DNA of 64,000 bases from Yuukianura sp. NJ FZ-2021. Its lineage: Eukaryota. The stretch is from assembly GCA_046563655.1 (NCBI GenBank), contig CM102286.1:10106001-10170000 (forward strand), in the 5' to 3' direction. Below the pieces are notes generated by a model that had not been told where the DNA came from, did not search any database, and saw nothing but the letters and a program-made list of their open reading frames with translations. This document shows, piece after piece, positions 1 to 64,000 of the stretch; position 1 is the first letter of the stretch; each line of letters begins with the position of its first letter. A program made the position numbers and the translations under genes.

Positions 1-398
1 TATAGAATTAACTGCTAACTAAATAGTAAAGGGTTAACCCTTAAGGATTGACTCCTTAATTATGTCTACTGATCAAATCAGACTGACTAATTATGACTGT
101 CTCAGCTAACTGGCTGACCGATTAATACTGACTTAACTAAAGTGAATACAAGCTACTTTAAAGATAAGATGACGCACAAGCTCACAAGAGCGTGCGTCAT
201 TGACTTAGATATGTCTACGTGTATTCACGTGTTAGAACTATGTTACTGCCACGTAAGCTAGAATTATGAATCATGCACACCTGCTAAGTTTAGGTTACTG
301 CGACTTACTTATATTACGACTTAACTTACGTCTTACGGTTACGAGTCATCATGTGCGCAGAACATTGTGAGTGAGATGACCCTGTCACAACGCTCACA
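1..398 (-). mobile_element. Probable 3' LTR (runs off window edge) of the multi-envelope retroelement
   Basis: On the minus strand, purine tract GGTGAGGGGAGTA (411-399) directly precedes TGTGAGCG, the same junction style as the confirmed LTR at 11986. It lies downstream of the glycoprotein ORFs and an AT-rich 3' UTR. No partner LTR seen. Confidence 0.65.
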
Positions 399-901
399 TA
401 CTCCCCTCACCACGGTGAAATTCCTGTCAAGGAATTTGAATAGTTTTCGCAAAACTAGATAGTTACTCATTTTCGACATTTTGTATTTTTCTTTTTGATT
501 TTTTCTTAAATGATAAGAACATAATTTCTATCTTTCAAATAATTTTTTATATAGACTTAAATATTTATAAGCATCTATTTTCATATTCAAGATATTAATT
601 AAATGTTAGTTTACAACTATATAAATTGTATGCATACAAATAAGTAATATGTTTCTTCTATTTTTTTTTCATTTTATATTGTATTATTTATTATTTTTTT
701 CTTTGTATTTTTACTGAATGAAATGTAAATTAAAATATATACTTTTTTGTTTTGATTTTTTGAGTTTTTTTATATATTTTTTCTGTTTTCGTTAATTTTT
801 GTAAAATTTTTTAGTTTGGCTTTTAGTTATGAGGAAAAAATTATGCAATATTTTTCGCTAACTTATGCTATATCATTCATACTTGTATGGTTCTAGTATT
901 T

Positions 902-2002
902 TTACTCGGTAGGGTTGCACATATCAACCATCACTCCCAACAAGTTAACGTTTTTGTTTTTTGTTAGCAGTTCTAAGTTTGCCAATTCTTCAAATTCGGT
1001 ATTCAAAGGTGTATACTCAGAATGAGCATACAACTCTGGATCAGTTTTGTTTGTCGTTAGAATCATTTTCAAAAAGCCAATCTTTTTTCCACATGGAAAT
1101 GGTTGATAAGTTGTAACAATTGTTACTTCCAAATTTGGGCATCTTATCATATCTCTTGCGATCAAACATGATTGGTTATGGTAGTGATGTCTATTGCATG
1201 GAGGATCTGCTTCGTAGGATTTAAATCTGTCTCCCCAAACAATCACTGAATTCGTTAATTCGCAAAATTCCGTTTTTAAATCGCAAGGAGCAATAGTTGA
1301 TCTGTCTTTTACCTCAATGAGCTTGTTCTCATTGACCGTCAAATTGTGAATCTTAATATAATAGTTTGTAACATTATCGTAAATAGTTTTGGGCCAAGCA
1401 AACCAAGTATATGGGTATTTGGTGGTCCCAAAAAATGTATCACTAAGCCTAGCAAGTGGAATATTGGTGGGATCTTTGTAAGATGTTACTAGGTTTTGGC
1501 ATTCTTTTACTGTCATTGTCTGCCAAATTGACTGGTAATGATGATTTTTTGGTCCAAAGAAATAAAAAGTTCGATATTCGTAGATCTCAAGCTTAAGGCA
1601 TTCGAAAGCAATGTAGTTTTTGTGTAAGGGTATTGACGTTATGATGTCAGTCCCAATTACTGCTTGAAGACCCCTAACGTTATTACATTGGGGGTTGTCG
1701 TAGGTGTTTTTGTACAATGTACCAAGAGTCCAATGTGTTAATTGGTTCGAATTATTTAATGGATATTTATTTACGGATAGTCTTTCCATCTCGGCATCGA
1801 GAAGATCTTCGAGTAGTTCTCGGAATTTGTCTTTGGTTTCGGTTTTGTTGATAATTGAGACCAGTTGTTGATCGTTGATCGAAATGATCTCTGGTTTGGC
1901 ATACTGAAGAATGTAGATAGTAGTTAGAAGTAGGATGAGTTCCACGTAGTAAGTCATCGCTAATGATTTAGAGTATATTAGATTAATTATAATTTCTTTC
2001 AT
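902..2002 (-). CDS. Truncated envelope glycoprotein paralog 4 (fusion-domain portion, no C-terminal TM)
   Basis: 366-aa ORF with N-terminal hydrophobic segment. FECLKLEIYEYRTFYFFG, ECQNLV, FAWPKTIYDNVTNYY and CDLKTEFC..VIVW align by eye to the full-length env (WLCKATTTTETRSYFF, ECEKMV, YIWPTTQTKTVTNYF, CSYEEEFC..ILIW). Confidence 0.8.
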   Translation of the reverse strand: MKEIIINLIYSKSLAMTYYVELILLLTTIYILQYAKPEIISINDQQLVSIINKTETKDKFRELLEDLLDAEMERLSVNKYPLNNSNQLTHWTLGTLYKNTYDNPQCNNVRGLQAVIGTDIITSIPLHKNYIAFECLKLEIYEYRTFYFFGPKNHHYQSIWQTMTVKECQNLVTSYKDPTNIPLARLSDTFFGTTKYPYTWFAWPKTIYDNVTNYYIKIHNLTVNENKLIEVKDRSTIAPCDLKTEFCELTNSVIVWGDRFKSYEADPPCNRHHYHNQSCLIARDMIRCPNLEVTIVTTYQPFPCGKKIGFLKMILTTNKTDPELYAHSEYTPLNTEFEELANLELLTKNKNVNLLGVMVDMCNPTE

Positions 2003-2045
2003 ACAATGTTAACGTAATGATTAGATTAAAATATAGTAAGTTAAA

Positions 2046-3722
2046 TTATGGGTAGAGATTTTGAGTAAGTATTTTTACTCCGTAGAGTGTGTTGATGGTG
2101 TCTGCTGATAGTGTTGTTGAAGAAATAAGAGTTGATTCTTGAGTAGTTGAGACTGGAACTGATGATGATGTTGTTGAAGAGATAAGAGCTAACTCTTCTG
2201 GAACTGATGATGGTGTTGCAACTGTTGGAGTTATTTCAGTTGGCTCAGTTGTTTCAAATGTTATTGTTTCAACTGTTATTGTTTCAACTGTTGTTGTAAT
2301 GTTCTTAGTAGTCCAAGTATTGTTAGGGGTTGTTGCTATTGTAACTTCAGCTTGATCAAGAATTTCTGTTGAAGAAGAAGCTAACTCTTTGATGTCAGAA
2401 ATAGAAGGACGCTGAAATTCAAATCTGTGATGGCTTATATCCAAAGTTTGGAAGCCTTGGATTGGGTGGTAGTGAGTTGTGTAAATTTCTTGATGTGTGG
2501 GTGGTTCATAGATTGGCGTAGGTAATCTACTTCCGCGTCTGTGGGGGATTAGACCTTGGACATTCTGGTTTTTTCCAGACTTGTTGTTCTGGTACGGGAA
2601 TAGATTCCAAGGGTTAAGGGTCAGTTTTTCTGGTTTCCTTTTCTGACCTTGTAGAGGTGTGGACTTTCGATCTGTTGACGTCTTTACGTATTCCCAATCT
2701 TGTTCTATTTCTGGATCATCTTGGCTTCCTGATGTACTTTGTGCTACTTCGCATGACGAAATATGTAAAATTTTCAGGAAGGCTTGCTGTCCTATTTTCA
2801 CGGTGTCGTAAAGGTGACGAAATCTCATTTCAATTTGAAATTTTGTTTTTGTGTCAATAATATTGTCCTCTGTCGTTTCAATTTTTTCTGTTGTTTCTGC
2901 AATACATCTCACCGTGCCAAGTCTGGCTCCACATTTGTCTTTTTCCATCTCATAGTAGTCTGAAATGCTAAGGCCTAATTCTGGACAAATTAAGCTAGTT
3001 GGACTGATAAAACATTCAGAAGCTACTCTGCGTTTTAGAGTACAATTGGAAGTATGATCTCCGTAGATTCTCCAAAGTAAGATTCCCTTGTTTGTGTAAC
3101 ACACATTGGAATCGAATGGGCAGTCAGAATATAATTCTGGCAATTCGTGAGATCGAATAAATCCAGTATATTGGTCATAGAAAATTTCGACGTCAATTAC
3201 GTAGTAATTTACAATTCTGTATCCCCAAGCTTTTACAGATCTGAATTGCGTGTCATTTGTAATGAGTAAATTTTTCGTACGTTTGGTGGTTTCATTGATT
3301 TGAAACATTTGCCAGCCCTGTGGATCATGGGCAGTGTTAATCATATGAGAACATTGATGAATTTCAATGTCATCTGGGTTTGAAATGGTTTTTAATTGAA
3401 AAGGTTCCAAATAGTCTGCCGTGTGTTTGACTTCAGTAGTTTCTTTGATACAATAGAAGCCTTTGATCTTTCTTGTCGGATGTTGGGTACTCCACCAGGC
3501 GGCAGAAACTAATATCGAGTTTGAAACTTGGTAAGGACATGAATCTGGTATGGATTTCAGAACACCGAGAGTCCAGATTTTGGTGGGTTCTTCGATTCCT
3601 GTTTCTGAACTATCTGTAATTCGGGTCAATTTCTCTTTCTGGTGTTGTCTTGTGTCCATTGGCTTTGTTGTGCTGAAGTAGAAGCACAATAGGCATAGGA
3701 TAAAAGTTTTTCTTAGATTCAT
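2046..3722 (-). CDS. Truncated envelope glycoprotein paralog 3 with Thr/Ser-rich mucin-like tail
   Basis: 558-aa ORF with signal peptide. KIKGFYC, CPFDSNVC..ILLW and CPELGLSI match full env (SVKGWLC, CPEVTLSI). Partial central helix (MRFRHLYD..C), T/S-rich C-terminus, no TM. Confidence 0.8.
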   Translation of the reverse strand: MNLRKTFILCLLCFYFSTTKPMDTRQHQKEKLTRITDSSETGIEEPTKIWTLGVLKSIPDSCPYQVSNSILVSAAWWSTQHPTRKIKGFYCIKETTEVKHTADYLEPFQLKTISNPDDIEIHQCSHMINTAHDPQGWQMFQINETTKRTKNLLITNDTQFRSVKAWGYRIVNYYVIDVEIFYDQYTGFIRSHELPELYSDCPFDSNVCYTNKGILLWRIYGDHTSNCTLKRRVASECFISPTSLICPELGLSISDYYEMEKDKCGARLGTVRCIAETTEKIETTEDNIIDTKTKFQIEMRFRHLYDTVKIGQQAFLKILHISSCEVAQSTSGSQDDPEIEQDWEYVKTSTDRKSTPLQGQKRKPEKLTLNPWNLFPYQNNKSGKNQNVQGLIPHRRGSRLPTPIYEPPTHQEIYTTHYHPIQGFQTLDISHHRFEFQRPSISDIKELASSSTEILDQAEVTIATTPNNTWTTKNITTTVETITVETITFETTEPTEITPTVATPSSVPEELALISSTTSSSVPVSTTQESTLISSTTLSADTINTLYGVKILTQNLYP

Positions 3723-3734
3723 TTTTAGGCAGAT

Positions 3735-4700
3735 TTAGTTGGCACACGGTCCAATCTGGACAATTTTGACTGTTGTTCTTGGTTGAATGTACAATTGATG
3801 GTAAATTTTGGGAAATTCCAGATCGATTCGAAATTGTTGGTTTTCTTCCGCTGGTGTCAAGTTCGGTTGTGTTGTAATTTTCGCATAAGTATTGATGTGA
3901 TCAGTATTTGAGGTTAATGTTGGACCAGCGAAAATTCTTGAATTTGGACAGTAAATTAGTCTCGATTGGACATAACAATGATAATCGATACTTCTATTCT
4001 TCTGACACAAATTCTCTTGAAGGTAGGAATGATTTTCTGTCTTTAATTGAAGAAGTTGGTGTGTTGTAAGACTACAAGTGTGTTTACCAAAAGTTGTGTT
4101 TGGGAAGTTTCCGTTTCCAATACTTGTTGTTAGTTCTATTTCTTGAAAGTGAAAATCTAAAAACGTCTCTCTAATGGAATCCTTATTTGGTGATGTTGTC
4201 CCATATAATAGGCCTGAGTCTTTGAAATTTGATTCTCGGAGTTCTGGGTCTGTGAATGTTGTGAAGACTGGAAATTTTGAGTTGAACGTAGGAATAAACT
4301 TGGAATATTTTTCGCTCACTGAAGTTATTTTTAGTGTTCTGTTGAAGATGTCTTTGAAGGAGAGGGAGATCTTCTGACATTGTTCGAATGAACAGATCTC
4401 ATTTGGTTTTGCAGTTGAAACTACAATAGGTGTTCTACTATTGTTTGATCTTTCAATTGTTGTTATAGATGAAACACAGCTGAAATACTTCTCGAGGATT
4501 TTTAACTTCCCCAATGTTGTTAACTCTACTGTTGCTATTCTTGTATTTTCTAGTGAGATCGAAAGTGGTACTTGTAATTTTGTAAATTTACCAAGAATCC
4601 AAATAGGTTTCTTCTGTTGAGTTGTAGTAGCACGAATTGGTATTGAATTGAAAATTATTGTTATTGTAATTAAAGTATGTAACTTGAATTTTGTCTCCAT
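3735..4700 (-). CDS. Truncated, most divergent envelope glycoprotein paralog 2
   Basis: 321-aa ORF with signal peptide. IWILG (cf. IWTLG and HWTLG in the other short paralogs), FSC..EQCQKI and CYVQSRLIYCP share the cysteine spacing. No TM. Confidence 0.7.
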   Translation of the reverse strand: METKFKLHTLITITIIFNSIPIRATTTQQKKPIWILGKFTKLQVPLSISLENTRIATVELTTLGKLKILEKYFSCVSSITTIERSNNSRTPIVVSTAKPNEICSFEQCQKISLSFKDIFNRTLKITSVSEKYSKFIPTFNSKFPVFTTFTDPELRESNFKDSGLLYGTTSPNKDSIRETFLDFHFQEIELTTSIGNGNFPNTTFGKHTCSLTTHQLLQLKTENHSYLQENLCQKNRSIDYHCYVQSRLIYCPNSRIFAGPTLTSNTDHINTYAKITTQPNLTPAEENQQFRIDLEFPKIYHQLYIQPRTTVKIVQIGPCAN

Positions 4701-4799
4701 TCATACAATTTTTTGCTGTAGTATTGTTGTTTTGAAAGTTTTGATGCGCGAGTTGTAAGGAAGAAGTCGATTTGCGGAACTGGTTGGAGATTGTTATTG

Positions 4800-7675
4800 T
4801 TATGCTCTAGGATGTCCGACCCACAAGTAACCACCTACTGGGTCTGGATTTGGTTGGGTGACTGGATAATAAGCCTGTGGGCTGAAAATTTCTGATCTGG
4901 TGGGGTAAGTTAGTTGTACTTCCCCCAATGGTCTTGCTGAAGTTGGATATGTAGTTTGATAAGAAGTCATCAAATTTTCGGAATATTCTGGAGGCATTAG
5001 AGGAACTGGATTCTGTTCTGGGATTGGCTGAATTTCTAGCGTACCAACTTCTCTGATTCGTCTACGTGGAATTCTTCTAATTCGAGATGCTGTGTTGGAC
5101 ATTGCTCTTCCAATTGGATTTCTGTATTGTACCAAGATGACCAAAGATACCAATAGTTCCTCCAAAAACTGCTATGGTCACTATTAGACCCAAAATTTTG
5201 GCGACTGTTTGTTTGATTGGTTCTAAAGTCCAACTTTTTACCGTTTCTGCGATCTGATATTGAGGTTCTGACCATTTCTGGCCGTTCATTTTAGCTTTGA
5301 TGATGTTGTCAAAACTGAATGGCTGTCGTATTTGACGTAACATAGCTATTAATGAATCTGATGCTTCGCTGTTTCTTACTGAGATGGTTCCTGGACTGTT
5401 GAAGCTGATTTCAGAAATTGGTTGTAACGGTATTTTATTTGCGAAAGGTAACGGAAGTACAGGCATGTAGACTGCCGTAGTTGTTGCGTTACTGAGCAGC
5501 AGCATTTTTGTACCAATGTTAAAAAAGAAAGGAAGTTGGTCTTCACATTGAATGTAGTCTGGTTCCAATGAAATATGTTTCGACAGTGGCTGAAGATAAC
5601 CTTGCATTTTTTGATGTTGGTACATAAATGTGATTGGCATGTTCCGTGTACAATTGACTTCTTTTGCTTGTGGTGTAAAATGGTAAGAGTCGATCGTTTG
5701 ACATTTCGTTAGAGCAATAGCGTCTCCATTCAAAATTGACAAATATCTTTGGTCTCTTAGTAACAGTCTGGCTATTACATTTGGGTCTCGTTGTTCTGTG
5801 AGATACGTAGCAATACTCAAGATCGAGTTCATGTTTATGCAATTCTGATGAATCAGATTTTGAATTGCGTATGAAACATTTTCTTTGATCATTTGGTGAA
5901 GATATTGTAATTTTCCATTGATGTGTGATGCAATCATCAGCGTATCTTGAATTGGTCTTTGTTTTGTTCGCGGGATTTGCGCTGTAATTGTTCTTAAAAT
6001 ATCATCTTCGGTACCTTCTAACACAGCACGGCTGAGTACTTCAGCATCTGGGTTTTTGGATTCACGAATTTTCTCTTTTTGAATTCTTGGTGAAACTCGA
6101 TTTTTGTTCCAAACTCTTGAATTTCTTTGGAAAATTCGATCATGAAAAAACTCTTCTCTTTCTGTAATGGTTTTTGGCTGAATTGGTACAAATTTTCGCA
6201 TAGTTGGAGTTGTGGTTGGCTTTCGAGTTGTTGTAGTAGTAGTACTAGTCGTTGAAGTAATGTAAGGTTGAGTTGATGGACTCGAGGTTACAATTGGTTG
6301 TAAAGTTGTGACTTCTTCATGTTTTGTTAACCATTCTGATTCCAGTTCTTCATGATTTTCTTTGAATGTTTCATCAGATGATTCCATTGGTCCCGATTCG
6401 GAAAATTTTGGAATTTCCGGAATTTTTGGTTGCATTCTTAGAGGTAGATGCGTTTCGAATTTGTGATTCTCCATTGGAATCGCAATTTCAGATGGAATTC
6501 TTGTACTTGTAACAACAGGAATTGATTTTGTTGTAGTTTCAACATTGAGAATTGGTAGAGGCTTGGTTTTTATTTGAATGCTTGGTGATTTTGGTCCGGG
6601 TCCTATTCTTTCGGCGAAATCAATGAAGATTTCTGGTTCTAGTTTTTGTGGTGGTTTATTCGAATTTTTCAATGACGGAGCTCTTTTCCCTAGTCCTAAA
6701 CGTGTTTCCGAAATTATTGTGAAGTCATCTGATTGAATTAACTGCCGTTTTTGTCTTTCATATTTACTTGTAGTCCTAACTCTGGTGGCTCGTTCGAAAT
6801 CTGAAGTGCTTGAAATCGGAATTGGTAGTTGGTCAGAATCTGTTGGAGTGAACATGATTCCGCCAGTTCCTGTTCCCATGTATAAATCGCAATACATTAC
6901 TGAGTGGATGTTTGGGATACTTAGTGTGACTTCCGGACATGAGAGGTAATTTTCGTTTGAGAGTAGACATTCGGTAGTGTGTGCTTTCATTAGGCGGCAC
7001 GTTTTGAAAAGATGTCTCGACCAAATCAAGATCGACCCATCTACTCCTGGGCAAAATTCTTCTTCGTAGGAGCAAGTTGACATCAGTGGAACTGGGGCAA
7101 TTATGCTCGAGTCGATGTTACTAGCACTGATTGTAACAGCTGAATAGAAGTAGTTTGTTACCGTTTTTGTTTGAGTAGTTGGCCAAATGTATTCAATGTC
7201 AATTTGTTTCTTGGTACCCCAAATTCCTTCTGCCAAAGTAATCATGGGTGAGTCATCCAACGCTTTTCCTGTGTCTACCATTTTTTCACATTCGTGCTGT
7301 GAGACTGGTTCAGCAATTTCTGATGTATCTCTAGAATGGCTTCCCCAAAAAAAAATAGCTTCTTGTTTCTGTCGTTGTAGTTGCTTTACACAGCCAACCT
7401 TTTACTGAGTCAATGTTTGGTGCGTCCATCCAAATTGTGATTGGTACCATTCGGGTTGGAGTGAGTAGTTCTATGAGCTCACATCTTGGCGCTTCTGGTA
7501 TTTGAAAACGTAGTGAACCAACATTTGGATCGCAAAAATATAAAGTTGGTTCTTTTGGTGCCAATGATGAAAAGTAAACACGATGAAGTGCTTCATCTTG
7601 TGGAGCCGGAAGTGCGATAAATGTCTTCACATTGTTTAAGATTATCCACACCAGTGTTAAGTGAAGAAGCGACAT
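4800..7675 (-). CDS. env: Full-length class III fusogen-like envelope glycoprotein (gB/chuvirus G-like), about 957 aa after correcting two 1-nt frameshifts
   Basis: ATG at 7675 starts signal peptide MSLLHLTLVWIIL. Removing one base from the 9-nt run at 7347-7355 joins it to ORF 7281-5077. Contains furin-like RQKR, a Thr-rich insert, KLQY helix, DPNVIARLL..GDAIALTKC..CTRNMPITF (recalls gB NP.AIA..GDVMAVSTC..CYSRPLVSF) and a TM. A second shift near 5157 joins ORF 5165-4800 as the cytoplasmic tail. Confidence 0.8.
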
Positions 7676-8630
7676 CTTGGTCACTTGTGTCCGATTTATG
7701 GATCCGAATTTTCTCAAAAATAAGAGAAAAAAAAATATTTTTTCACAAATATCTGCAGTTTTGCCACTTAACAATAACACTGTTCTGTACAGTAAGTGAG
7801 TGTCCATAAGGTACTTTTCACTAATGACTTTTTTTTTCAGTTGTTTTGTGTTCAAATATTTAACTTGAAGTGATTTTCCGTTTTTAGTGAAGTGGTCTTC
7901 CATAAGCTTTCTAACTAAAGTTAACTAAGGGGTCCTGTTTCCTCCCCGGCCAGCTTTGGCTTGGGTAGGCGGGGTAACACCGTGCGCGAATGAAACGGGG
8001 TGATTCTTCACATCTTTAAAATACTTGGAAAAGTACCTTTGTTTAATGAAAACTGTTGGTAGTTCTCTCAAAACTACCAATAGCCGAGGCCCCCAAGCCT
8101 CTGCGGGTCTAACACCCGCTCACCCCTCGTGACCTCAAGCCTTTGACCCTCCCGGGCCCTTAAAGCATCTGAACTGATTATGAGATTTAAGAATAGGGGG
8201 GAGCCAAGCCTACCTGATCTACCAGTTTCTCCCTGACTAATCACCTTGACACCAGGTGGGGCCTGGTTCCACCAGCCCCACCATCGGTCCTAACTGCCCG
8301 AGTTATTATTTAAATGAAACAAGTCTAAACCTAGCTCCGTTAAACAATGGAAAGAGTAATTGTTTTATTTACCTCTTCAGCAACAGTTGGATTCTCGGCA
8401 GTTAGCGGACTCCAGCAAGAGCGAAGTTTAGACGCAACAACGGCGGAGAGTTGGATTTTCAGAGTTTATTTCCCAAAAGAGAGTATAGCGCAACCTAACC
8501 TTTTGAAAGTAGATCCCAGAGAGATTTAGGAGAAAAGCTAATTTGAAAATTACTTAATTTTAACAGAGTTCTCACTACTATTTATAACCTAGTCAGTAAC
8601 CTACTCTGTCCTCTAATTCTAATTACCCTT

Positions 8631-8908
8631 GCAACTTGTGTCCGCAATCGGACGTTAATGACCAGGATTTATAATCCTGTTTAGTCATTAATGTCCGATA
8701 TCAGACAAAGTTGCGAGTGTATGCAAATTGACATCTCGTCAATTTGAATTAAAATCACTCGCTTATGGCATGACTTTACATGTCCAACAAGTGTAAAACT
8801 TGTTAAACAAGTAGAATTGTCGCGTCGGCTTTCTCTGGCCTGTCAGATCAAAGATCATAACTCTTTGCAACTTTGTTGCAAAAGCGAGTTTTATCAATTT
8901 GCATACAC
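8631..8908. other. Cluster of long inverted repeats (structured non-coding region)
   Basis: gcaactt..atcggacgttaatgac..caggat pairs with atcctg..gtcattaatgtccgat..aagttgc (8631-8714). gtgtatgcaaattga (8717) pairs perfectly with tcaatttgcatacac (ends 8908). Confidence 0.75.
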
Positions 8909-11900
8909 GTTCATTTTACCCTTATCACTAATTACTCCTAATTAGAAATTCGTTCAGATTTTTAACTTGTCCCGAAATACGAATTCCGGGAGAAGTCGAA
9001 ATCCGACGTTACACGAACCAATCACAATTGAGCAGCAGTGCTGAGGCCATGTGTTGGCCTGATGGTTTCTTTAACTTTGAGGTCTGGTCAACATCTTTCC
9101 CCATGTCAAAAGTTCAAAAAGTGGTCGTAAATCTTTTAACCTTCTGGCCTCAGAAAAATGCTTTTTCCTTATGGAACCCATAAGGAATCCTAACAGTCAC
9201 TTTTTGACAGATGTGACCTCTTCTGATCCCGGATTTTAATTTCGCGCAAACAAGAGAACAACAATTTTAATCGTAACTGGGTTGAACCAGTTTTGGCTTT
9301 ATGAAGTTTTTGAAAAAAAAATTTATTTGGAAAATTCACCATATTCATTAATTACTCATTCTACCTGAGCAATTGTATTCTACATGACTTGTTGTCGGTC
9401 TGTCCGTCTGCCCGTCATTTTTGAAGTTAAAAATTTTGATTTTTTAAAATTGTGGGAAATATTGATAAAACTGCTTTATTATTATGTATGTCCGTGTGTC
9501 GGTTTGTCTGCTTGTCACTCACCCATTTGCGAATTTCAATTTTAATTTTCTCAAAAAAAATTTTTAATAAAAACTACTTTGTTGTTATATGTGTCTGTCT
9601 ATTCCTCCGTATGTCCTAATCAGTATGCCGTATCTTGGGCATAATAAACTAAGTAATTACATCTAAATTTGTCACTGTCTAATGTTGCTGACAATTACAT
9701 TAATTTAACTTAAACATGTCATTTAACTGTCGGTCTGTCCATCTGTCTGGCTCTGCTTTTCATATTGAATATGCTCAAATTCAAAAATAGTTTTAACTTA
9801 GTGGTTTTCAGGTTGCTAAGTTATTTTCCGGGATTCTGTGTAGGAGCCACCAGTGGGATGGCCCATAAGAACTACTGAAACAGCTGAAAGTGAGCGTTCA
9901 ATTGTAACAAGAGGTCATTCTACAATTGCTATCATAGTCTTCCAATCGTTATTACAACCTGCACATTTTACATCTTGTTTACGTTTGTCATCGAAGGTTG
10001 CACATTTATAAATCTGTAACTTGTTTTTAATTCTAGCAAGGTTGACGGTAGCTAATGCACAAGGCAATAACAACTTGAACTTTTCTCGCACCGATAACCG
10101 TGCAAGATAACCTTAAATCTAGAAGAGTTTTTAAAAAGTTAAAGTTTGACATCGATTCACTATAGGATTCCCGACACTTCGTAGGAGCACAAACTTACCA
10201 CCGGTCTAATGCCCCTTTTTTTAGGACTGTGAAACTACATCAAAATAAGATGACTTTTCTCCCTGACTTGTAGAATTAATGAAAACTGATTGTTTATTTT
10301 ACAAAGTGAACTAATTGATCATTTAAAGGTGATCTTACACTGATTTTCCTTAATTAATTGGAAAACCCTATCTCCTACCTATCTGCATGTATGAAACGAG
10401 AAAAGATTATAAAAGCCGCTTTGCCTCGTTTTCATTAAGAAGTGGAACACAAATGCGTGAATCATAGAATAACAAAAAGCAGCATAATACAGTATGTTTT
10501 AGGCAGGGTGAAATTTGTCTCGAATTGTCACCATGTCTTTTTTGGCATCCTGCCGAAAAACATCGTGCCAATTCGAAGCAAAGAACATTCTGACTTGGAT
10601 AGCAAAAGTACATTCTGCACTGTTTGCCATCATGTCATAAATACCTGGGGCAACGTGAGATTTGCAGGGGCAGAGGGTGGCTTACCTCCCTCATCATTTG
10701 TAATTGTAAGTTATTTTTAGCATCGCAGGAAGTTTGTAATTTTCTATTATTTTCCATAACCTTTTCGAATTTAACCACAATTTTGCTTCCGCGCCATTGA
10801 GTTAATAGCTTTTCCACAATCAGAATATCATTAAGCTTATTTAGTGTTTCTGTAAATACCATCCTAACTACTGATATAAGAATCACAAAAGAAATACTGC
10901 TAAGTTTCTGTTTTTATTGTTAATTCGTTAATCCCAGTTACCTCAAACTCGTTTGCTTCATTCTGATATTTATATACCTTAAATTATGATTTTATTATGT
11001 GTTTACTTTTTTGTTTTTATTTTAAATAAATAATTAAATTTTTTTAAATGCTAAGAAATGTGGAAATATTTCATGTTCGTTTTTTTTATCTGGCATTTCT
11101 GACGGGAGCATGCACTTCACTATAAATGTCCGTCTTTATACGGATTCTGCACTTTGAAATCAAACCGCCTTAAGACAACGTATTCAGCATAGCTCTAGTA
11201 AACCGTCGTTATCCACATCGTCCTCTTCCAATCCTTTATCAATTCCATTACTTTTAGTACTTGGACTTCAACGAAAAAGTGGTTGAAGTAAACTTTGCCT
11301 CCTCGTTGAATTGTATTGTACCCCTACAAAATTGATAAGTACAAATTTTAGTTGTCTTAGTTTAGTTAACTAATTGCACTCAGTAATTAACTTCAGTCAG
11401 TACAATTAGCATACCAGACTCATACATTGAGGGTAATTTTGGGTCGCCGAGCACTAAAATGCCCTAAAGGTTGAAAAATGTAAACTTAATTAACTAATCA
11501 CAATGAATAATTCACTTTAATTAGTACAATTAGGATATACGTGTAAAGTAATTTTTGGTTCCTGAACCTCAAAATCACATCAAAAACGTTGAAAAACGTA
11601 CACCTGAGAGGACCCCTGACGTAGGTGCGTCGTCTCACGTCGATGTCCAGTGGAGAAGCATCGTCTTCCTATATACCGGACGGTCTGGTTTCCCCAAATA
11701 GCCAAAAGCTCGCTCTAACTCTGAATAAACCCAATGATGCAACTCCGTGTGCTAACCCAACCCAATAACTAATCTTTATTCCCAAAACCAAGCCCTAACT
11801 ACGGTGAAACAACTCTGTCCGGACTTCCCCTACTAGAGATCCTACTCGGAGGACCTCCAGAAGAGTACTACCGTTCCGCAATACACGCACTTCCAACCAG

Positions 11901-12299
11901 TGCGTCTTTGGCCCACGGCCATAACCTCTTCTTCGTTTCCCATCTATCTCCTGTGAGGGATTTTCGCCCCGGGAAAATACCTCACATACACCCCCCATCC
12001 AGACAGAATTTTTTCAGCCATAGTCTGTTTACAAATCTAATTTTTGTTAGTAGTTAGTAAGTGATGTTTGAATGATTTAAAACTATTTTAGGAAACAATC
12101 GAGGAACACAGTAAATTAAAATATTGAGTCGAGATTCCGGATACAGAATAGAAATAGCTTATGACAATAATTTTAAATTTGAATCATAAGAAGACAATGC
12201 AGATATAATGGTTTTTCAATAGCACACTAAGATTAGGGCCACATTGAGGAATAAAAGATATCTGTGGAAATCAGTTTTGCATATTTTTATAATTACTAC

Positions 12300-13170
12300 A
12301 TCGGCAAGTGTTGAACAGCATATTCTTGGTAGAAGTAGATTGCGTGTACCAATAGCGGGAATGATATTCTGAGGCGATGGTTATGGTGAGATTTTCCTAG
12401 CGCCTTTGTAGAATGAGTTTCAGCCAGGTCGAGTTATGACAGTTATTTGTAATACACAAATGGTTGTAAGAGGAATCGCCATGCATCACTGAGTTGTGGC
12501 ATGTTGATATCATGCGAAGAAGAGAAATCCACGGTTGTTATTAAATCATTGAAGACTGGCAAGAAACTGCTGCCGGTTTCGTTGACGTGGGTTTTAAGTA
12601 TTTCCGAGTTGAATTTGGTAGAACATCCAGGAGAGCGGTAGGCATACATTAACATCTTGCAGTAGATGAACTGTAATCTGCAGTCAGTAATTTTCAAATT
12701 ATGAGTGGTCGTTAGTATTGTTCTTGCAGCATTTTATGTTAAAAGCAGTAATTATGTTACTATTAGTGAAAGCTCACAATTCAAATGTTAATTAGTCAAC
12801 TGATAAACTAGTTTGCATTGTTAGTGAAGGTTAGCATTGCTTTCGTTAACCATTTGTCAAAGTAGAGAACGGGGCCGATTAGAAATGAAAATCACTTCTT
12901 CTGTTTCAACGCTCAATCCTTTTACGGAATTAATCCTAGTTGGAAAAATGGTTAACTGAATATGTTTGGTAATAGTAAGTTGAATAGTGCAAACAGGTAG
13001 AGCAGGGCCGAGTGATACTTGTTGTAGTACCACTGTTTCAACACTCATTCCCAATTAAGGACCTGTTTCAATTTTTAGAAATGTGCATTCCATACTTATT
13101 TTAATCGCAACGTGTAGTAATGTTGAACTGTGCACAAGTTCAGCATAACTGCGTTCGTCGATAAGTTACT
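12300..13170 (-). pseudogene. Degenerate env-like remnant inside the small LTR element
   Basis: Fragment TRINSVKGLSV resembles env PNIDSVKGWLC, and TDCRLQFIYC..C resembles SDCPFDSNVC..C. Position before the PPT is the env slot. Broken by stops and shifts; boundaries approximate. Confidence 0.4.
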
Positions 13171-13634
13171 TATTAGGTATGGTAGGAGTAATGCTTGTGT
13201 GTGACAAGGCTTCATCGCCTTGCAGGTATAGGGCTTCCAACACTCTTGTCTTCGAGACAAGACACTATCGCCTTGCCTATGTCAACAACTTGTCGCACCT
13301 GCTCATCGGACAATCGCTCTGTATGACGAAGTACTTCTTAAAATCGGAGAAGGTGTGCCCACCCTATCCGTGTCATTGAACCTGTCATATTGTGTACCCT
13401 TTAAAAAGGGTATCTTCGGTTCATACTTGTTAGAAAAGTCACACTCAACATCAACAATTTGTCGCACCTTCTCTTCGAACAATCTCTCTGTATGAGGAAG
13501 TGCTACTTCTTTCTTATCTATTAACAATGGAAGAAGTGGCGGATTCGCAAGAAGAGAACCAGCCACTTCTTCGTAATCCCCGGCCGAGGAATGGATTGGT
13601 TTTGTAACATCTATTATGTAACATCGAGCCTGTG

Positions 13635-14162
13635 TTAAACCAGTCTTAGCAGGTCACTTTCCAAATCGGACATCAGAATAGGAAAGGTTGTCTTTCCAAT
13701 TGTAATTGCTTGTTTTTCAAGATCAATCTTCACTTGATGTTTTCGTAAAAAATCCATGCCTAATAATACTTTAATGGGACAATTTTCTACAACCAGCACC
13801 TCCTGAAAAGCCTGAAAATTTGGTAGAACAACGCTAATGGTGGCACGTCCTGCCGGTTGAATTTTAGTTGCACCTACGCCCGTCAGTGTGAAACTAGGAT
13901 TTAGTGTTTGAATCTGTGTTTTATCTATTAATGCCAAATCGATCAGCGAAGCTTGAGCTCCGGTGTCAAGAAGAATAAGGGTTTGTTTTTGATTCACTAA
14001 TCCGTGAACCCGGAGTAAATCAGCATTACCAACAGAAAGCGTGAATATGTCTACTGTGGAGCCTGGTATTGAGTGTTGAGAGAATTGATCAAGGGGTCCG
14101 TCTTTAGAACAGGTCGGTCCCCTTGAGTCGACCCGTTCCTTAGGTTTTTTAACACTTTGCAA
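13635..14162 (-). CDS. pro: Retroviral-like aspartic protease in the -1 frame relative to gag
   Basis: LLDTGAQASLI active site and VLLGMDFL motif. Overlaps the end of gag with an in-frame A AAA AAC slippery heptamer at 14150-14144. Confidence 0.9.
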   Translation of the reverse strand: MQSVKKPKERVDSRGPTCSKDGPLDQFSQHSIPGSTVDIFTLSVGNADLLRVHGLVNQKQTLILLDTGAQASLIDLALIDKTQIQTLNPSFTLTGVGATKIQPAGRATISVVLPNFQAFQEVLVVENCPIKVLLGMDFLRKHQVKIDLEKQAITIGKTTFPILMSDLESDLLRLV

Positions 14163-15287
14163 TCTTCAGTGTTATGTGTAGAACTTTTGTGGTGAGTGCA
14201 ATACTTCCCTGAACGAGCAGGGGTATCTTTTTGCCTCGTCATCCAACACGCCTCCGTAGAGTGTGTGGCGACATTATGATTGCGACAAAAAGTCTGGACT
14301 GTACAGGCGTTCGCCACATGACCTGGCCCCGCACATCTGTAACAAGTAAGTTGGGAACAGTTGGCCGCAATATGGCCCGGCTGTCCATATCGGTGGCACG
14401 TGATCTCTACTCGGCTGCGACCGGCGGGTTTCGCGACTGCCTGAGGTTGTGCGAACATATTCGCGTTTCTATACAAGTTGGGATCCTTTGTTAGAGTCGA
14501 ATCCAGGTTGAAGTGTTGGAGCGAGGTATTCAGCGATGGATGATTCACGGTCACCACCTGAACCATTGATGACCGTCGCTGATCAGCGTCCATTGCGGCT
14601 CTGTCCATGGCCTGTTCCAACGCAAACACATCTCTTTGATGTGTCAGCATTGAATTGGCCTCTTGGATTGTTTTTACCTATTTTAATAAATTCCGCCACC
14701 GTCTTCGGATTCAACAATGCCATCTGTTGTAGATATGATGGGCGCAAATTGCGAATCAAGTATTTAAGTTTTCTGGTTTCGGGTAGTTGTGGATCTAATT
14801 GTTGCAGAATGTTTAAAAGATCGTAGGTGTACGCTTCAATGGATTCGTCAACCTTTTGTTTCCGGCTTTGAGCCTTATCTTCTGCCGCAATGGAGTCGAC
14901 TATTCCGAATACCCGCAATAATTCATCCCTAAGTGGCTCATATACCACAATGACCTGAGCCTGGTTTGAAGTACGTCGCAATTGTTCTAAATAATTAACG
15001 AACCAATCTTCCGCTACCTTCTCCAGGTAAGCGGGGAAGAAAAGGCCCCATGTTGATTGAGGCAGCCTATTGGCCATGGCTGCCAATTCCCATTTTACAA
15101 GGAAGCGATGTACACATTCGGAATGCGTACCTCCAAACTTTGGAAACGGGACCGAAACCCGTTGTGGAAGGTTTGGTACAACTGCCGTGGTTGTGCCTTG
15201 CCCTGCAGACGAAGCAGCCGGATCGTTTTTAGCAGCCGAAGGAGCGGGTGTCAATGATGGTAAGGTAGGAGGAGGAGGGTTACTCAT
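14051..15287 (-). CDS. gag: Gypsy-type Gag (capsid plus four zinc-knuckle-like motifs), split by a 1-nt frameshift
   Basis: FPKFGG..YLEKVAEDWF and RKQKVDESIEAY capsid motifs, CYRCAGPGHVANAC knuckle. Deleting one base from the 5-nt run at 14671-14675 fuses the two ORFs. Confidence 0.88.
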
Positions 15288-15929
15288 GATGCTTATTGTT
15301 CTTAGATTCTAAGCGAAAGAAATGATCGTCTTATGCACATTAACATACAACAGTAAAATAAGCAAAAGAGATGCAAAACTAAAAATATCAATAAAAATGT
15401 AAGTAATTGGCTTTCTCACCCTCAAAAAGATCCCTGCTCAATAAATGTGTTATTGTCCTGTTGTTAAAGCGTGATGATTTTTAGCACTCTATTGGTTGAA
15501 ACTAGTAAAGAATAGACCCGATCCCGTTAATGGTACAAGAAATTGAAGTTGATGCCTCAGATTCCCCAACACGACTCCACTACTTCGCATCAAGCGTGTG
15601 GTATTTGAACGCCTCTCGTCTCTATCACTGTGGCTGGGCTCCGGTCATTAACCCCAATAGAGTGTGCAAAAGAAAATGATAGGATGCTGCACCACCCCAC
15701 CAGTGAACTTGCTACCTTAACACGTGTCGATGAAAATCCTTGAGGTTATTGCACTTTGTGCATTTACTCCCAGGATGATATTCCAAGGAAGGCCTACCGC
15801 GCGTGGCAATGCCCGCCATTTTGGAATGTACTATTATGCGTGCGAGATGAATCACCCCCCATCCCTCTACCACAGAAAAAAACTGCTGCCAAGCCACCCC
15901 CTTCCTTTCTACTATTGGGTCCCCTTTGA

Positions 15930-16046
15930 GGCCCGCCTCCGCGCATGCATTTAGTCTCCCTCGAAAATCTATGCCCCGCCTCTCCGTATGCATTTAGTCT
16001 CCCTTTACAGTCGATGCTCCGCCTCTCCCGATGTATTTAGTCTCTC
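15930..16046. repeat. Three imperfect ~43-bp tandem repeats in the element's 5' leader
   Basis: ccgcctc....atg(c/t)atttagtctc occurs three times. Confidence 0.8.
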
Positions 16047-19000: not shown

Positions 19001-19689
19001 AGAAGGCTCTCAATGCCCTCGATTATAATCTTGTGCATACACTTGTTTTTTTTGTCTGCGTTTACACACAATATGGCTCTTAAAAGATCAACGGTACGCT
19101 CCCTTAAGTCGCTTTCCAAACCGGCACCCTTAGCTTTTTCACTTTAACTCTTGATTCCTCAATTCGACTTTAAAGTGGAATCAAAATTTCGAAAGAGGTA
19201 TGTAGGTTGTGAGGAATTTTGTGAAAATACATTAAGGTATTAATTCGAAATATTCGTAAGTTAACATACAGAGAAAGCTCAGAAGTGAAGCTTTATTGAA
19301 AAGTGCCATATGGTTTCGGCAGTGCACTTACTACGAATTTTTAGTCCAAAGCGACAAGCATGGGGTGCCATATGTCGCAGGAAGAAGATGGACACAGTTT
19401 CTGAATTCATTTGTGAAGTTCGATCCTCTCCTTTGCTCTGTTTCCTTTGATCTCTCGTCATTTGACGCCGACATCCGCATCCCTTTGACGACACTTTTAG
19501 GGCTGCAGAAATAGCACATGCGGAGGCTTATTTTCACTTGACAACAATGATCACTACAAAAACATGACTTGAACTAAACCTTTACATTTTAAGCCAAAAT
19601 TTTGAATGTAGAGAGACAACGACGAGCGTGATAATCTTGTGGCTATTCCACACGGTTATAGTTACAAAAGTTTATTGTTGAAGCGACTG

Positions 19690-20084
19690 AACTGACGAGG
19701 GAAACCCATTTACCTCTTGCCGAGCTTTTTTATTTCAATACTTTAGTCGTGTCCATACTGCAAAAAAATCGGTCGTAGTTTTAACTGCGAACGCCAGAGA
19801 AAAAGTATGTTTCGATTCGATCTCGAGTCCGACGCCGTATCAATAAAAAAAACGAATTTTTCTCCGAAATCCCATACGTAGAACGTAATTTAGGGCACCT
19901 AAAATTCGTCTTTTTCACTGATATACGGTGTGGGACGCGGGATCAAACCTCAAACCGGTATTCTATTTTTTGGAGTTGGCAGTTGAAAATACCACCAAAA
20001 ATTTTTTTTGCAATATCGAACAAGGCTGCATAATACTTAAATTAAAAAACTCGACGAGAGGTCAATGGGTTTCCCTCGTGAGTT
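19690..20084. mobile_element. Old palindromic MITE-like element
   Basis: acgagggaaacccatt at the left end pairs with aatgggtttccctcgt at the right. Imperfect complementarity continues inward to acgaatttt/aaaattcgt. Confidence 0.75.
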
Positions 20085-23396: not shown

Positions 23397-23721
23397 CTTA
23401 AAACTTAAAAAGGTTTGACTTCGTGATGAAATTGTTTCACTTTGACTTGTGTCTCGTAATGACAGTGAAATATTACTGAACTAAATTTTAAACCATATTT
23501 TGCAACCCACACAAGTGGCCGAATTTAACAGGCCTTAAGAGTAGAGTGGTATTATATGATATTTGACCTTGGGTGAACTTAAATCTATGAGCTAAGATTC
23601 TTGATGTGGAACTATGGTTGAACATTAAAGTAGAACGATGTCATTTCTAAAAAAAAAAAAGTCATAAATACTTTCCATTTATTGCAGACCTTTAGTGTTA
23701 AATTAGTAAAATAATGCGCGA

Positions 23722-63953: not shown

Positions 63954-64000
63954 CTTATTTTTTCTGCACTGTCATCGTGTGTCTCTCAAGCTATGTGAGC

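What the first reader, a model, noticed from the sequence alone, without database searches (positions are those of the whole stretch)
398..7675. LTR retroelement with a tandem array of four paralogous class III fusogen-like envelope genes
Seen: four co-oriented intronless ORFs separated by only 99, 12 and 43 nt, ending at a PPT/LTR junction and sharing one cysteine framework. Only the first has the full helix/GD..C/TM architecture. The other three have an N-terminal hydrophobic leader and the fusion-domain region but no anchor, and remain open despite strong divergence. Known: some invertebrate LTR elements captured a single gB-like or chuvirus G-like env (nematode Tas, mosquito Anakin). Inference: an expanded env cassette with soluble paralogs may be an undescribed multi-component entry system (receptor-binding partners, decoys or superinfection exclusion).
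Basis: partly seen in the sequence, partly recalled or inferred. Interest (0 to 1): 0.92.

Follow-up and report, generated by a model that had tools for sequence, protein, structure and literature searches.

The report
Retroelement with four related envelope genes
A remnant of a retrovirus-like mobile element in an animal genome carries one membrane-fusion envelope gene followed by three shortened, anchorless copies of it. The same four genes in the same order sit behind the polymerase gene of a distant relative, which points to an undescribed multi-part envelope module.

Summary
The array is real and lies on the minus strand: E1 7675->4800, E2 4700->3735, E3 3722->2046, E4 2002->902, then a purine tract and a TG-start repeat at 398. 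E1 is a class III fusion glycoprotein by Pfam PF24664 (1e-13), and its AlphaFold model matches gB and rhabdovirus G (Z about 9). It has a furin-like site, a mucin-like linker, a central helix and a TM anchor. E2-E4 have hydrophobic leaders and no anchor. They are homologous to E1's N-terminal half (hhalign 4e-29 and 2.5e-15), and the E4 model holds the fusion domain.

The key new evidence is two metagenome contigs of one distant relative (25-38% identity). They show gypsy-type RT-RNaseH-integrase followed by E1-, E2-, E3- and E4-like genes in the same order, with position-wise orthology. So the cassette is old and conserved.

There are three corrections. E1 in this window is broken by two frame shifts. 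No gag, pol or second LTR lies in the window. Depth looks single-copy, so this locus is a 5'-truncated remnant.

Function is inferred only: E1 as fusogen, E2-E4 as secreted accessory or interference proteins. My literature searches found no description of such a cassette. I rate it a new variant of env-carrying LTR retroelements.

The parts
1..398 (-). Putative 3' LTR. It starts with TGTGAGCG at 398 and runs off the window start.
   Evidence: Sequence read. Depth is higher in 1-400 than in 401-800 in 4 of 4 runs, and contig joints fall at 398. No second copy in the window, so this is not proven.
401..411 (-). Polypurine-tract-like GGTGAGGGGAG, 2 nt before the TG of the repeat.
   Evidence: L001 has a comparable GAGGTGG followed by TGTGTG about 545 nt after its E4-like stop.
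399..901 (-). A/T-rich untranslated spacer (GC 20.5%) between E4 and the repeat.
902..2002 (-). E4: 366 aa, anchorless, hydrophobic leader (a second Met at residue 16 would give a typical signal peptide). It keeps the FYFFG and W-P hydrophobic motifs.
   Evidence: BLASTP to E1 2e-12 and to the L001 E4-like protein 2e-46. hhalign to the E1 family 4.2e-29.
1220..1615 (-). Class III fusion domain of E4 (residues 130-261).
   Evidence: The AF2 model (pLDDT 82) aligns to Chandipura virus G residues 54-174 with Z 9.5, rmsd 3.4 A over 118 residues, and to gB domain I with Z 9.4.
2046..3722 (-). E3: 558 aa with a leader and an N-terminal G-like half (about 1-330), followed by a Ser/Thr/Pro-rich tail (36% S+T+P). 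No anchor.
   Evidence: BLASTP to the L001 E3-like protein 9e-44. Residues 296-325 match the start of the E1-family central helix.
3735..4700 (-). E2: 321 aa, the most diverged paralog. It has a leader and no anchor.
   Evidence: No Pfam hit. hhalign of the E2 pair against the E3 pair gives prob 92.6, E 4.5e-7, and against the E4 type prob 87.8, E 3.3e-6. It shares a roughly 25-aa insertion with the L001 E2-like protein.
7334..7675 (-). E1, first frame segment: signal peptide and N-terminal region.
   Evidence: It matches L001 E1-like residues 36-121 at 38% identity, 2e-20.
7347..7355 (-). First frame break of E1, in a T9 homopolymer.
   Evidence: Contigs of 4 of 4 runs differ in length here (table 4).
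5077..7401 (-). E1, main frame (774 aa stop to stop). It holds the fusion and PH region, RQKR, the linker, the central helix, the crown-like region and the TM anchor.
   Evidence: Pfam PF24664 1.1e-13. 130 homologs. AF2 model. Foldseek and VIA matches to gB and rhabdovirus G. BFVD matches.
6745..6756 (-). Furin-like RQKR (E1 main-frame residues 216-219).
   Evidence: An R..R column is conserved in the family alignment.
6016..6735 (-). Disordered Ser/Thr/Pro-rich linker (residues 223-462).
   Evidence: pLDDT below 50. 33% S+T+P. It is variable or absent in relatives.
5791..5931 (-). Long central helix (residues 491-537).
   Evidence: It aligns with gB domain III.
5131..5208 (-). Transmembrane anchor of E1.
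   Evidence: Hydrophobic 19-mers score up to 2.24. It lies within helix 712-755 of the model.
4800..5165 (-). Tail frame of E1 after the second break (near 5141). It encodes a long cytoplasmic tail with PPEY, like the PPxY tails of relatives.
   Evidence: A 10-base length difference at 5141 is seen in contigs of 2 of 4 runs (table 4). The tails of relatives are shown.
7987..9013 (.). 1,027-bp high-copy repeat inserted upstream of E1. It is absent from other contigs and is not part of the cassette.
   Evidence: Joint 7986->9014 in 4 of 4 runs, and depth 4-6 times the neighbouring bins.
9830..9831 (.). Upstream limit of the cassette-bearing segment. Contigs of 4 of 4 runs join 9831 to the first 30 nt of the repeat at 398.
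   Evidence: table 5 (side 30 nt only). Unexplained.

Best explanation
What it is (shown). This is the 3' part of a Ty3/gypsy-type, env-carrying LTR retroelement on the minus strand. Its envelope module is a four-gene cassette.

E1 is a complete class III fusion glycoprotein. It has a signal peptide, fusion and PH domains, a furin-like RQKR, a mucin-like linker, a central helix, a crown-like region, a TM anchor and a PPxY tail. E2, E3 and E4 are old paralogs of E1's N-terminal half. Each has its own hydrophobic leader, ends soon after a conserved cysteine, and has no anchor. The cassette and its order predate the split from the lineage of L001/L002, where it sits directly behind RT-RNaseH-integrase. 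The window's copy is a remnant: no gag or pol, no 5' LTR, E1 frame-broken twice, and apparently single-copy.

How it works (inferred). E1 is cleaved at RQKR and, as a trimer, drives membrane fusion for cell-to-cell spread of the element's particles. The PPxY tail recruits budding machinery. E2-E4 are secreted glycoproteins made from separate, probably spliced, messages. They act in trans on entry as accessory envelope components. E2 and E3 have lost the hydrophobic loop residues and would serve as binding modules. E4 keeps those residues and would be a membrane-binding module. They attach either to E1 or to the target cell surface.
For: Class III identity of E1. Pfam PF24664 scores 50.6 bits against a cut-off of 27. 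Foldseek finds 67 PDB chains at E<=1e-3, and all rows shown are gB or VSV G. VIA gives Z 9.2 to HSV-1 gB (model 1-649 against gB 161-667) and Z 8.9 to Chandipura G. BFVD gives 118 hits at E<=1e-3, led by glycoproteins of invertebrate negative-strand RNA viruses.

Paralogy. BLASTP gives E1-E4 2e-12 and E1-E3 2e-5. hhalign gives E4-type against the E1 family 4.2e-29, and E2/E3-type against the E1 family 2.5e-15. The E4 model contains the fusion domain. Five cysteine columns are filled in 8 of 8 proteins.

Conserved cassette. L002 and L001 read RT, RNaseH, IN, then ORFs of 938, 344, 367 and 339 aa. The best hits are by position: E1 7e-53, E3 9e-44 and E4 2e-46, against 1e-8 to 2e-10 for cross-type pairs. 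In the tree, the E1 clade has support 100/100, the soluble clade 100/100, the E3 pair 96/90, the E2 pair 83/73, and E4 forms one group at 78/44. Each E2, when placed alone, falls next to E3.

Constraint. The E1-like genes of L001 and L002 differ at 23 synonymous and 6 non-synonymous codons out of 939. Of the 32 window-locus variants that were displayed and fall in the ORFs, 15 are synonymous, against about 22% expected.

E4-type spread. 7 of 130 library hits are E4-type.

Loop motifs. F148, F149, G150 and W203 are invariant in 4 of 4 E4-type proteins and are absent in E2 and E3.

Helix start. E3 residues 296-325 match the helix start of the E1-family protein P0050 at 40% identity over 30 aa.

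Possible splice acceptors. In L001 a pyrimidine-rich ...AG lies 0-1 nt before the ATG of E2-, E3- and E4-like genes.
Against: The window has no pol or gag next to the cassette and no second LTR. E1 here is broken twice.

Only one independent relative shows the whole order, because L001 and L002 are 98.4% identical copies of one element.

E2 orthology rests on profile comparison, a shared insertion and long tree branches. BLASTP between the two E2 proteins finds nothing.

The displayed E4 variants are near neutral, at roughly 9 non-synonymous to 4 synonymous. Only 32 variants that fall in the ORFs could be classified; 291 further differences were not shown.

The E4 model used an alignment dominated by E1-family rows, so it leans towards that fold.

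In the window only 1 of 4 ATGs is directly preceded by AG.

Nothing here tests secretion, cleavage, binding or fusion.
Confidence: 0.6

Rival explanations
1. The anatomy is the same, but E2-E4 work against entry. They would be secreted decoys or receptor blockers that give the element superinfection exclusion or blunt host recognition. This is like truncated soluble Env proteins of vertebrates, or the soluble glycoprotein of filoviruses (both recalled, not from a call).
For: E2-E4 have no anchor but do have leaders. E2 and E3 have lost the hydrophobic loop residues. E3 carries a variable mucin-like tail. Dezordi et al. proposed receptor blocking for solo chuvirus-like glycoproteins (PMC7642597, passages read).
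Against: Three distinct, position-conserved paralogs are more than a simple decoy needs. E4 keeps the hydrophobic loop motifs. No functional data exist either way.
Confidence: 0.3
2. In this genome the cassette is no longer part of a mobile element. It is a host-retained (domesticated) cluster of E2-E4, with E1 decaying.
For: There is no pol or gag. Depth over 902-7675 is like the flanks, so it is single-copy-like (table 2). E2-E4 are open while E1 is broken. E2 variants are 2 non-synonymous to 7 synonymous.
Against: The public contigs differ in length at both E1 break points, so the breaks may be allele- or assembly-specific. The cassette still abuts the purine tract and the repeat. The displayed E4 variants look near neutral. 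A joint at 398->9831 hints that the segment is polymorphic. No expression data exist.
Confidence: 0.2
3. The ORFs are an endogenised fragment of an exogenous negative-strand RNA virus (chuvirus- or rhabdo-like), not a retroelement env.
For: The nearest named structures are glycoproteins of invertebrate negative-strand RNA viruses. The Pfam family is Monjiviricetes_fusion.
Against: The relative has the cassette directly after RT-RNaseH-IN in one orientation. A purine tract plus a TG repeat follows it here. No N or L gene remnants turned up among the ORFs. Four tandem G paralogs are not a known layout for such viruses (recalled).
Confidence: 0.05
4. E2-E4 are decaying duplicates of env without a function of their own.
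For: They are highly diverged (17-28% identity). E2 has very long branches.
Against: All three are open in two lineages that share only 22-28% identity. The cysteine framework is kept in 8 of 8 proteins. Orthology is by position. 0 of 500 shuffles give frames of 300 aa or more.
Confidence: 0.05

Closest known systems
Env-carrying Ty3/gypsy elements with HSV/gB-type ENV ('ancient errantiviruses'; Chary & Hayashi, eLife 2026, PMC13524379. I read the outline, section 5 part 1, and passages found by term.)
   Same: Gypsy-type pol followed by a class III (gB-like) envelope gene with conserved cysteine bridges. Found in invertebrates.
   Different: That work describes three ORFs (GAG, POL, ENV). In the text I read or searched there is no mention of extra anchorless env paralogs. 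Here one fusogen is followed by three conserved truncated paralogs. I did not see the supplements.
Anakin: BEL/Pao elements with a chuvirus-like glycoprotein in mosquitoes (Dezordi et al. 2020, PMC7642597; passages read)
   Same: A retroelement that carries a Monjiviricetes-type class III glycoprotein. Solo glycoproteins were proposed as receptor blockers.
   Different: The backbone there is BEL/Pao; here the relative's pol is gypsy-type RT-RNaseH-IN. Anakin has a single glycoprotein gene. Its solo copies are scattered in the host genome rather than forming an ordered cassette inside the element.
Nematode, bryozoan and flatworm GAG-ENV-POL elements (Sacco et al. 2022, as cited in PMC13524379; the paper itself was not seen)
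   Same: Same glycoprotein superfamily. Distant library hits such as P0077 show gag, then G, then PR, RT, RNaseH and IN in one ORF.
   Different: The order there is GAG-ENV-POL with one env. Here the order is POL, then E1-E4.
Herpesvirus entry machinery: gB with gH/gL and receptor-binding proteins (recalled)
   Same: A class III fusogen that works with additional glycoproteins. gB has a furin site in the linker before its central helix, as E1 does.
   Different: The herpesvirus partners are unrelated in fold to gB. Here the putative partners are paralogs of the fusogen's own fusion and PH half.
Soluble truncated Env proteins of vertebrates: FeLIX as an entry cofactor, Refrex-1 and suppressyn as inhibitors; filovirus sGP (recalled)
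   Same: Anchorless N-terminal env fragments, secreted and acting in trans on entry.
   Different: Those are class I Env fragments. They are single genes, mostly host-captured or made by transcript editing. They do not form a conserved three-gene set carried by the element itself.

Membership tests
Class III viral fusion glycoproteins (rhabdovirus G / herpesvirus gB / Pfam PF24664 Monjiviricetes_fusion) | Sequence match to a curated family model above its cut-off | tested here: met
   E1 scores 50.6 bits against a cut-off of 27, E 1.1e-13. E2, E3 and E4 have no Pfam hit above cut-off. They join the family only through E1-family profiles.
Class III viral fusion glycoproteins (rhabdovirus G / herpesvirus gB / Pfam PF24664 Monjiviricetes_fusion) | Fold: an elongated fusion domain nested in a PH-like domain, then a long central helix and a crown or C-terminal domain | tested here: met
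   The E1 model gives Z 9.2 to HSV-1 gB over 339 residues and Z 8.9 to Chandipura G. Foldseek finds 67 chains at E<=1e-3. In the E4 model the fusion domain alone gives Z 9.5, rmsd 3.4 A over 118 residues. These are predicted models, not solved structures.
Class III viral fusion glycoproteins (rhabdovirus G / herpesvirus gB / Pfam PF24664 Monjiviricetes_fusion) | Two hydrophobic fusion loops at the tip of the fusion domain | tested here: inconclusive
   The FF.G and W-P motifs are conserved in the E1 family and the E4 type and lost in E2 and E3. Mapping them onto the known loops rests on approximate residue numbers recalled for VSV G.
Class III viral fusion glycoproteins (rhabdovirus G / herpesvirus gB / Pfam PF24664 Monjiviricetes_fusion) | C-terminal transmembrane anchor | tested here: met
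   Met for E1 (hydrophobic segment scoring 2.24) and for the L001 E1-like protein (2.92). Not met for E2, E3, E4 or their L001 counterparts.
Class III viral fusion glycoproteins (rhabdovirus G / herpesvirus gB / Pfam PF24664 Monjiviricetes_fusion) | Homotrimer; membrane fusion activity | not testable with these tools
No assay was possible.
Env-carrying Ty3/gypsy LTR retroelement | gag and pol (PR-RT-RNaseH-IN) upstream of env | tested here: not met
   Not met in the window: tblastn with the L002 pol and seven other pol-bearing queries finds nothing in 7600-13600. In the relative L002, RT, RNaseH and IN lie directly upstream of the E1-like gene, but gag, PR and the LTRs are not on that contig.
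Env-carrying Ty3/gypsy LTR retroelement | Paired LTRs with PBS, PPT and a target-site duplication | tested here: inconclusive
   One putative LTR with a PPT-like tract is present, with support from a depth step and joints at 398. There is no second copy in the window, and no whole genome is held.
Anakin (BEL/Pao + chuvirus glycoprotein) | BEL/Pao-type pol (Peptidase_A17, DUF1759, DUF5641) | tested here: not met
   The L002 pol has RVT_1, RT_RNaseH, Integrase_H2C2 and rve only. The BEL/Pao element at 41574-48282 in the window is separate and carries no glycoprotein.
GAG-ENV-POL nematode-type elements | env placed between gag and pol | tested here: not met
   In L002 and L001 env follows IN. Distant hits such as P0077 do have the GAG-ENV-POL order.

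The most novel reading that the evidence does not exclude
A retroelement lineage has built a multi-subunit class III fusion apparatus by duplicating its own fusogen. E1 is the anchored fusogen. E2, E3 and E4 are three anchorless modules, each with fusion and PH domains and the start of the central helix. They assemble with E1 or with each other (for example as a heterotrimer) to supply receptor binding and triggering. This would be the first class III fusogen found with paralogous accessory subunits.
Probability: 0.3. Interest if true: 0.9.

Novelty: new variant of a known kind. Interest (0 to 1): 0.78.

Why it matters
Class III fusogens are understood either as self-sufficient homotrimers (rhabdovirus G, GP64) or as needing unrelated partners (gB with gH/gL); this is recalled textbook knowledge. 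A conserved set of three anchorless paralogs encoded next to the fusogen, and kept in the same order across lineages that share only about a quarter of their residues, would be a new layout for an entry or exclusion system. It is directly testable with four small genes.

It also bears on how invertebrate LTR elements spread between cells and how they might exclude competitors.

It matters for annotation as well. The E2, E3 and E4 types have no Pfam model, and surveys that look only for GAG, POL and ENV would pass over them.

Tried and rejected
Searches that gave nothing or little:
- Word-index protein search with E1: none of 7,999 candidates scored.
- The same search with the E2/E3 alignment: none of 3,887.
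- The same search with the E4 alignment: only 2 proteins, both of the L001 lineage.
- tblastn against phage records: no match.
- IMG/VR scan: 66 pattern matches, none confirmed.
I repeated it with a closer 5-row alignment.
- Whole genome: none held. So copy census, TSD, 5' LTR and per-copy dN/dS could not be done.
- Earlier findings of the scan: nothing.
- Protein atlas for E2: no usable hit. For E1 the scores were 0.86, which is a lead only.
- Rfam: only two tRNAs, near 63.6 kb. ARAGORN on 1-20000: none.
- The bacterial promoter/terminator scan is irrelevant here.

Expression: no RNA holder was listed among the 5 runs.

The queue was full each time, and then the tool was declared unavailable. 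Nothing was folded.

Ideas considered and rejected:
- That the gag-PR element at 11605-17046 is the 5' part of the same element. It has its own 388-bp LTR pair at 99% identity, unrelated to 1-398.
- That a variant puts a stop codon in E4 at codon 160. The two adjacent changes (1523, 1524) sit in the same contigs and together give Tyr.
- That the short library hits of 350-430 aa are E2-E4-like. Most are E1-type proteins cut by contig ends.

Literature: six searches and term searches inside PMC13524379 found no description of a multi-paralog env cassette. Subscription papers (for example Sacco et al. 2022) and supplements were not seen.

Full report
**1. Observation**

On the minus strand the window holds four long frames in a row:
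- E1: ATG at 7675, ending at 4800 if read through its breaks.
- E2: 4700->3735, 321 aa.
- E3: 3722->2046, 558 aa.
- E4: 2002->902, 366 aa.

Stop-to-stop lengths are 774, 562, 368 and 321 aa. In 500 shuffles of 902-7675 the longest frame averaged 109 aa (max 198), and none reached 300 aa. The 12-nt and 43-nt spacers are exact.

The 99-nt spacer and the single 'ORF1' are not exact. E1 is split in a T9 run (7347-7355) and again near 5141. After the second break the tail continues in the frame 5165->4800, which encodes PPEY. Public contigs of 4 of 4 runs differ in length from the window at the first place, and contigs of 2 of 4 runs at the second (table 4). So the breaks may belong to this copy or to this assembly. 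I did not write out an unbroken reading.

Downstream of E4 come 503 nt of 20% GC spacer, then a purine tract (401-411), then TGTGAGCG at 398.

**2. What E1 is**

The main frame matches Pfam PF24664 (Monjiviricetes_fusion) at 1.1e-13, 50.6 bits against a cut-off of 27. It also matches Glycoprotein_B weakly, below cut-off.

A full HMMER scan of 1.84 billion representatives gave 130 relatives: 52 at E<=1e-10 and 25 at E<=1e-30. All 10 clusters I looked up are unnamed or called 'hypothetical protein', and they come from metagenome or assembly sources.

In an alignment with 13 of these relatives, the upstream frame of the window lines up with the family's conserved N-terminus, which confirms one gene split by a frame shift. 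The alignment also shows:
- an R..R site and a variable Ser/Thr/Pro-rich insert;
- an invariant GD...C;
- a TM segment;
- PPxY-bearing tails in relatives.

An AlphaFold2 model from 57 sequences has pLDDT above 85 over residues 30-210 and 490-650, and a disordered stretch at 223-462. The fold comparisons agree:
- Foldseek against the PDB gives 67 chains at E<=1e-3. Every row shown is herpesvirus gB or VSV G.
- VIA-align gives Z 9.2 to HSV-1 gB (model 1-649 against gB 161-667) and Z 8.9 to Chandipura virus G (model 1-196 against G 56-252).

E1 is therefore a class III fusion glycoprotein. Its layout is gB-like, with a furin-like RQKR in the linker before the central helix.

**3. What E2-E4 are**

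Within the window, BLASTP gives E1-E4 2e-12, E1-E3 2e-5 and E3-E4 5e-3. E2 gives only weak hits. Profile comparisons settle the question:
- E4-type (4 sequences) against the E1 family: prob 99.8, E 4.2e-29, 267 columns.
- E2/E3-type against the E1 family: prob 98.5, E 2.5e-15.
- E2 pair against E3 pair: prob 92.6, E 4.5e-7.
- E2 pair against E4 type: prob 87.8, E 3.3e-6.

All of these alignments fall in the N-terminal third of the E1 family.

An alignment of the eight proteins (four from the window, four from L001) has five cysteine columns filled in 8 of 8. It shows a TM segment only in the two E1 proteins. The FF.G and W-P hydrophobic motifs are kept in E1 and E4 but lost in E2 and E3. In the E4 alignment F148, F149, G150 and W203 are invariant in 4 of 4 sequences.

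The E4 model (pLDDT 82; its alignment is dominated by E1-family rows, so it leans towards that fold) places residues 130-261 on the fusion domain of Chandipura G (54-174; Z 9.5, rmsd 3.4 A, 118 residues) and on gB domain I. Foldseek gives 72 chains at E<=1e-3.

E3 residues 296-325 match the start of the central helix of E1-family fragments: 40% identity over 30 aa to P0050 and 33% over 36 aa to P0023. So the soluble paralogs appear to stop just after the conserved cysteine of that helix. This rests on 2 of 130 hits in a tiny database and is a modest point.

**4. The relative that decides the matter**

A metagenome scan returned two contigs, L001 and L002. They overlap at 98.4% identity and represent one element. 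Together they read:
- an open pol frame with RVT_1, RT_RNaseH, Integrase_H2C2 and rve, which is the gypsy order;
- an E1-like gene of 938 aa, 196 nt later;
- then ORFs of 344, 367 and 339 aa.

Orthology follows position. E1 matches at 7e-53, 3e-39 and 2e-20. E3 matches the third ORF at 9e-44, and E4 matches the fourth at 2e-46. Cross-type hits are only 1e-8 to 2e-10. The two E2-position proteins find each other only through a shared insertion of about 25 aa, a common C-terminal motif and the profile results.

A maximum-likelihood tree of 26 N-terminal halves gives these supports:

| Group | Support |
|---|---|
| E1 clade | 100/100 |
| Soluble clade | 100/100 |
| E3 pair | 96/90 |
| E2 pair (long branches) | 83/73 |
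| E2+E3 | 92/91 |
| E4 (7 rows, one group) | 78/44 |

With either E2 left out, the other still falls beside E3 (SH-aLRT 96 and 60). So the duplications predate the split of the two lineages.

Among the 130 library hits, 7 are E4-type (P0056, P0067, P0091, P0093, P0105, P0123, P0127). The E4 family therefore exists in further lineages.

**5. Constraint**

Between L001 and L002 the E1-like gene differs at 29 codons: 23 synonymous and 6 non-synonymous. All 6 non-synonymous changes lie in the linker or the tail.

At the window locus, 32 of the displayed variants fall in the ORFs (291 more were not shown). They split into 15 synonymous, 16 non-synonymous and one apparent stop. That stop, together with its neighbour in the same contigs, reads as Tyr. 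About 78% non-synonymous would be expected by chance. By gene the non-synonymous to synonymous counts are E2 2:7, E3 1:2, E1 4:2 and E4 about 9:4. This is a weak, partial sample.

**6. The state of this locus**

There is no pol or gag next to the cassette. tblastn with eight pol-bearing queries finds only the protease and zinc knuckle of a separate element at 13.6-14.5 kb. That element (11605-17046) has its own 388-bp LTRs and is unrelated to 1-398. No other copy of 1-398 is in the window.

Laying contigs of four DNA runs from two studies shows:
- depth over the cassette similar to the flanks;
- higher depth over 1-400;
- a 1,027-bp high-copy insertion (7987-9013) that other contigs lack;
- a joint, in all four runs, between 9831 and the first 30 nt of the repeat at 398.

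The last point marks 398 and 9830/9831 as real boundaries. I cannot tell whether it reflects a presence/absence polymorphism, a solo repeat on the other haplotype, or another copy.

L001 shows a similar GAGGTGG followed by TGTGTG about 545 nt after its last gene. This fits a PPT/LTR junction in both lineages.

**7. Mechanism (inferred)**

E1 has everything expected of an autonomous class III fusogen, plus a furin-like site and a PPxY tail. E2-E4 each have a leader and N-glycosylation sequons (6 each) and no anchor, so they should be secreted.

In L001 a pyrimidine-rich AG lies 0-1 nt before the ATG of the E2-, E3- and E4-like genes, and 1 nt before the ATG of the E1-like gene. This would fit separate spliced messages. 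In the window only the E1 ATG has this feature.

Three conserved, non-interchangeable paralogs argue for distinct roles. My best guess is accessory envelope components acting with E1. The main rival is secreted interference or decoy factors.

**8. Comparison with what is known**

Gypsy-type elements with gB-type ENV are known across invertebrates (PMC13524379). Chuvirus-like G in BEL/Pao elements (Anakin) is known (PMC7642597). GAG-ENV-POL elements are known too, and distant hits here show that order. None of the text I read or searched mentions several env paralogs in one element. Six literature searches found nothing of the kind.

I file this as a new variant of env-carrying LTR retroelements. 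The window's own copy fails the gag-pol and paired-LTR tests and is best called a remnant.

**9. Verdict**

The function remains open. Interest 0.78.

Noticed in passing
window 11605-17046 (minus strand): A separate LTR element with 388-bp LTRs at 99% identity. It encodes only a gag-like protein, zinc knuckles and an aspartic protease; no RT or IN was found. It sits between inverted repeats (11363-11586 against 17123-17342), as if inserted into a foldback element.
   Followed up: partly
window 41574-48282 (plus strand): A full-length BEL/Pao element. Its 507-bp LTRs are 98.8% identical, and it has one open 1,757-aa gag-pol frame with DUF1759, Peptidase_A17, integrase and DUF5641 domains. It carries no glycoprotein gene.
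   Followed up: partly
window 7987-9013: A 1,027-bp high-copy repeat (depth 4-6 times the neighbouring bins) is present in the window but skipped by contigs of all four public runs. This looks like an insertion polymorphism just upstream of E1.
   Followed up: partly
window 398 and 9831: Contigs of all four runs join 9831 directly to the first 30 nt of the repeat at 398. In one run a contig also joins 542 to 157 with 21 other letters between. The structural variants around the repeat remain unexplained.
   Followed up: partly
L001 3945, 5066, 6500 (and 928): Each ATG of the cassette genes in the relative is preceded within 0-1 nt by a pyrimidine-rich ...AG, like a 3' splice acceptor. In the window only the E1 ATG has this.
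   Followed up: no
proteins P0077, P0071, P0098, P0101, P0072 (library hits): These are single long ORFs with gag and a zinc knuckle, then the G-like domain, then protease, RT, RNaseH and IN. So the same glycoprotein family also sits between gag and pol in distant elements. P0110 instead has BEL/Pao-type IN and DUF5641 followed by the G-like domain.
   Followed up: partly
window 63488-64000: A 288-bp tandem repeat, each unit holding a tRNA gene (63594-63665 and 63882-63953), next to G/C-rich short repeats at 63244-63490.
   Followed up: no
window 58037-59916: Large inverted repeats (92-97% identity) built of short units that contain the palindrome-like AAGCGTACG motif.
   Followed up: no
window 22848-23480 (minus strand): An intronless 210-aa GNAT-family acetyltransferase ORF (Pfam 3e-15), surrounded by spliced-looking genes.
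   Followed up: no
window 49600-55650 (plus strand): A multi-exon gene with a weak adenylate/guanylate cyclase catalytic-domain match and short introns.
   Followed up: no
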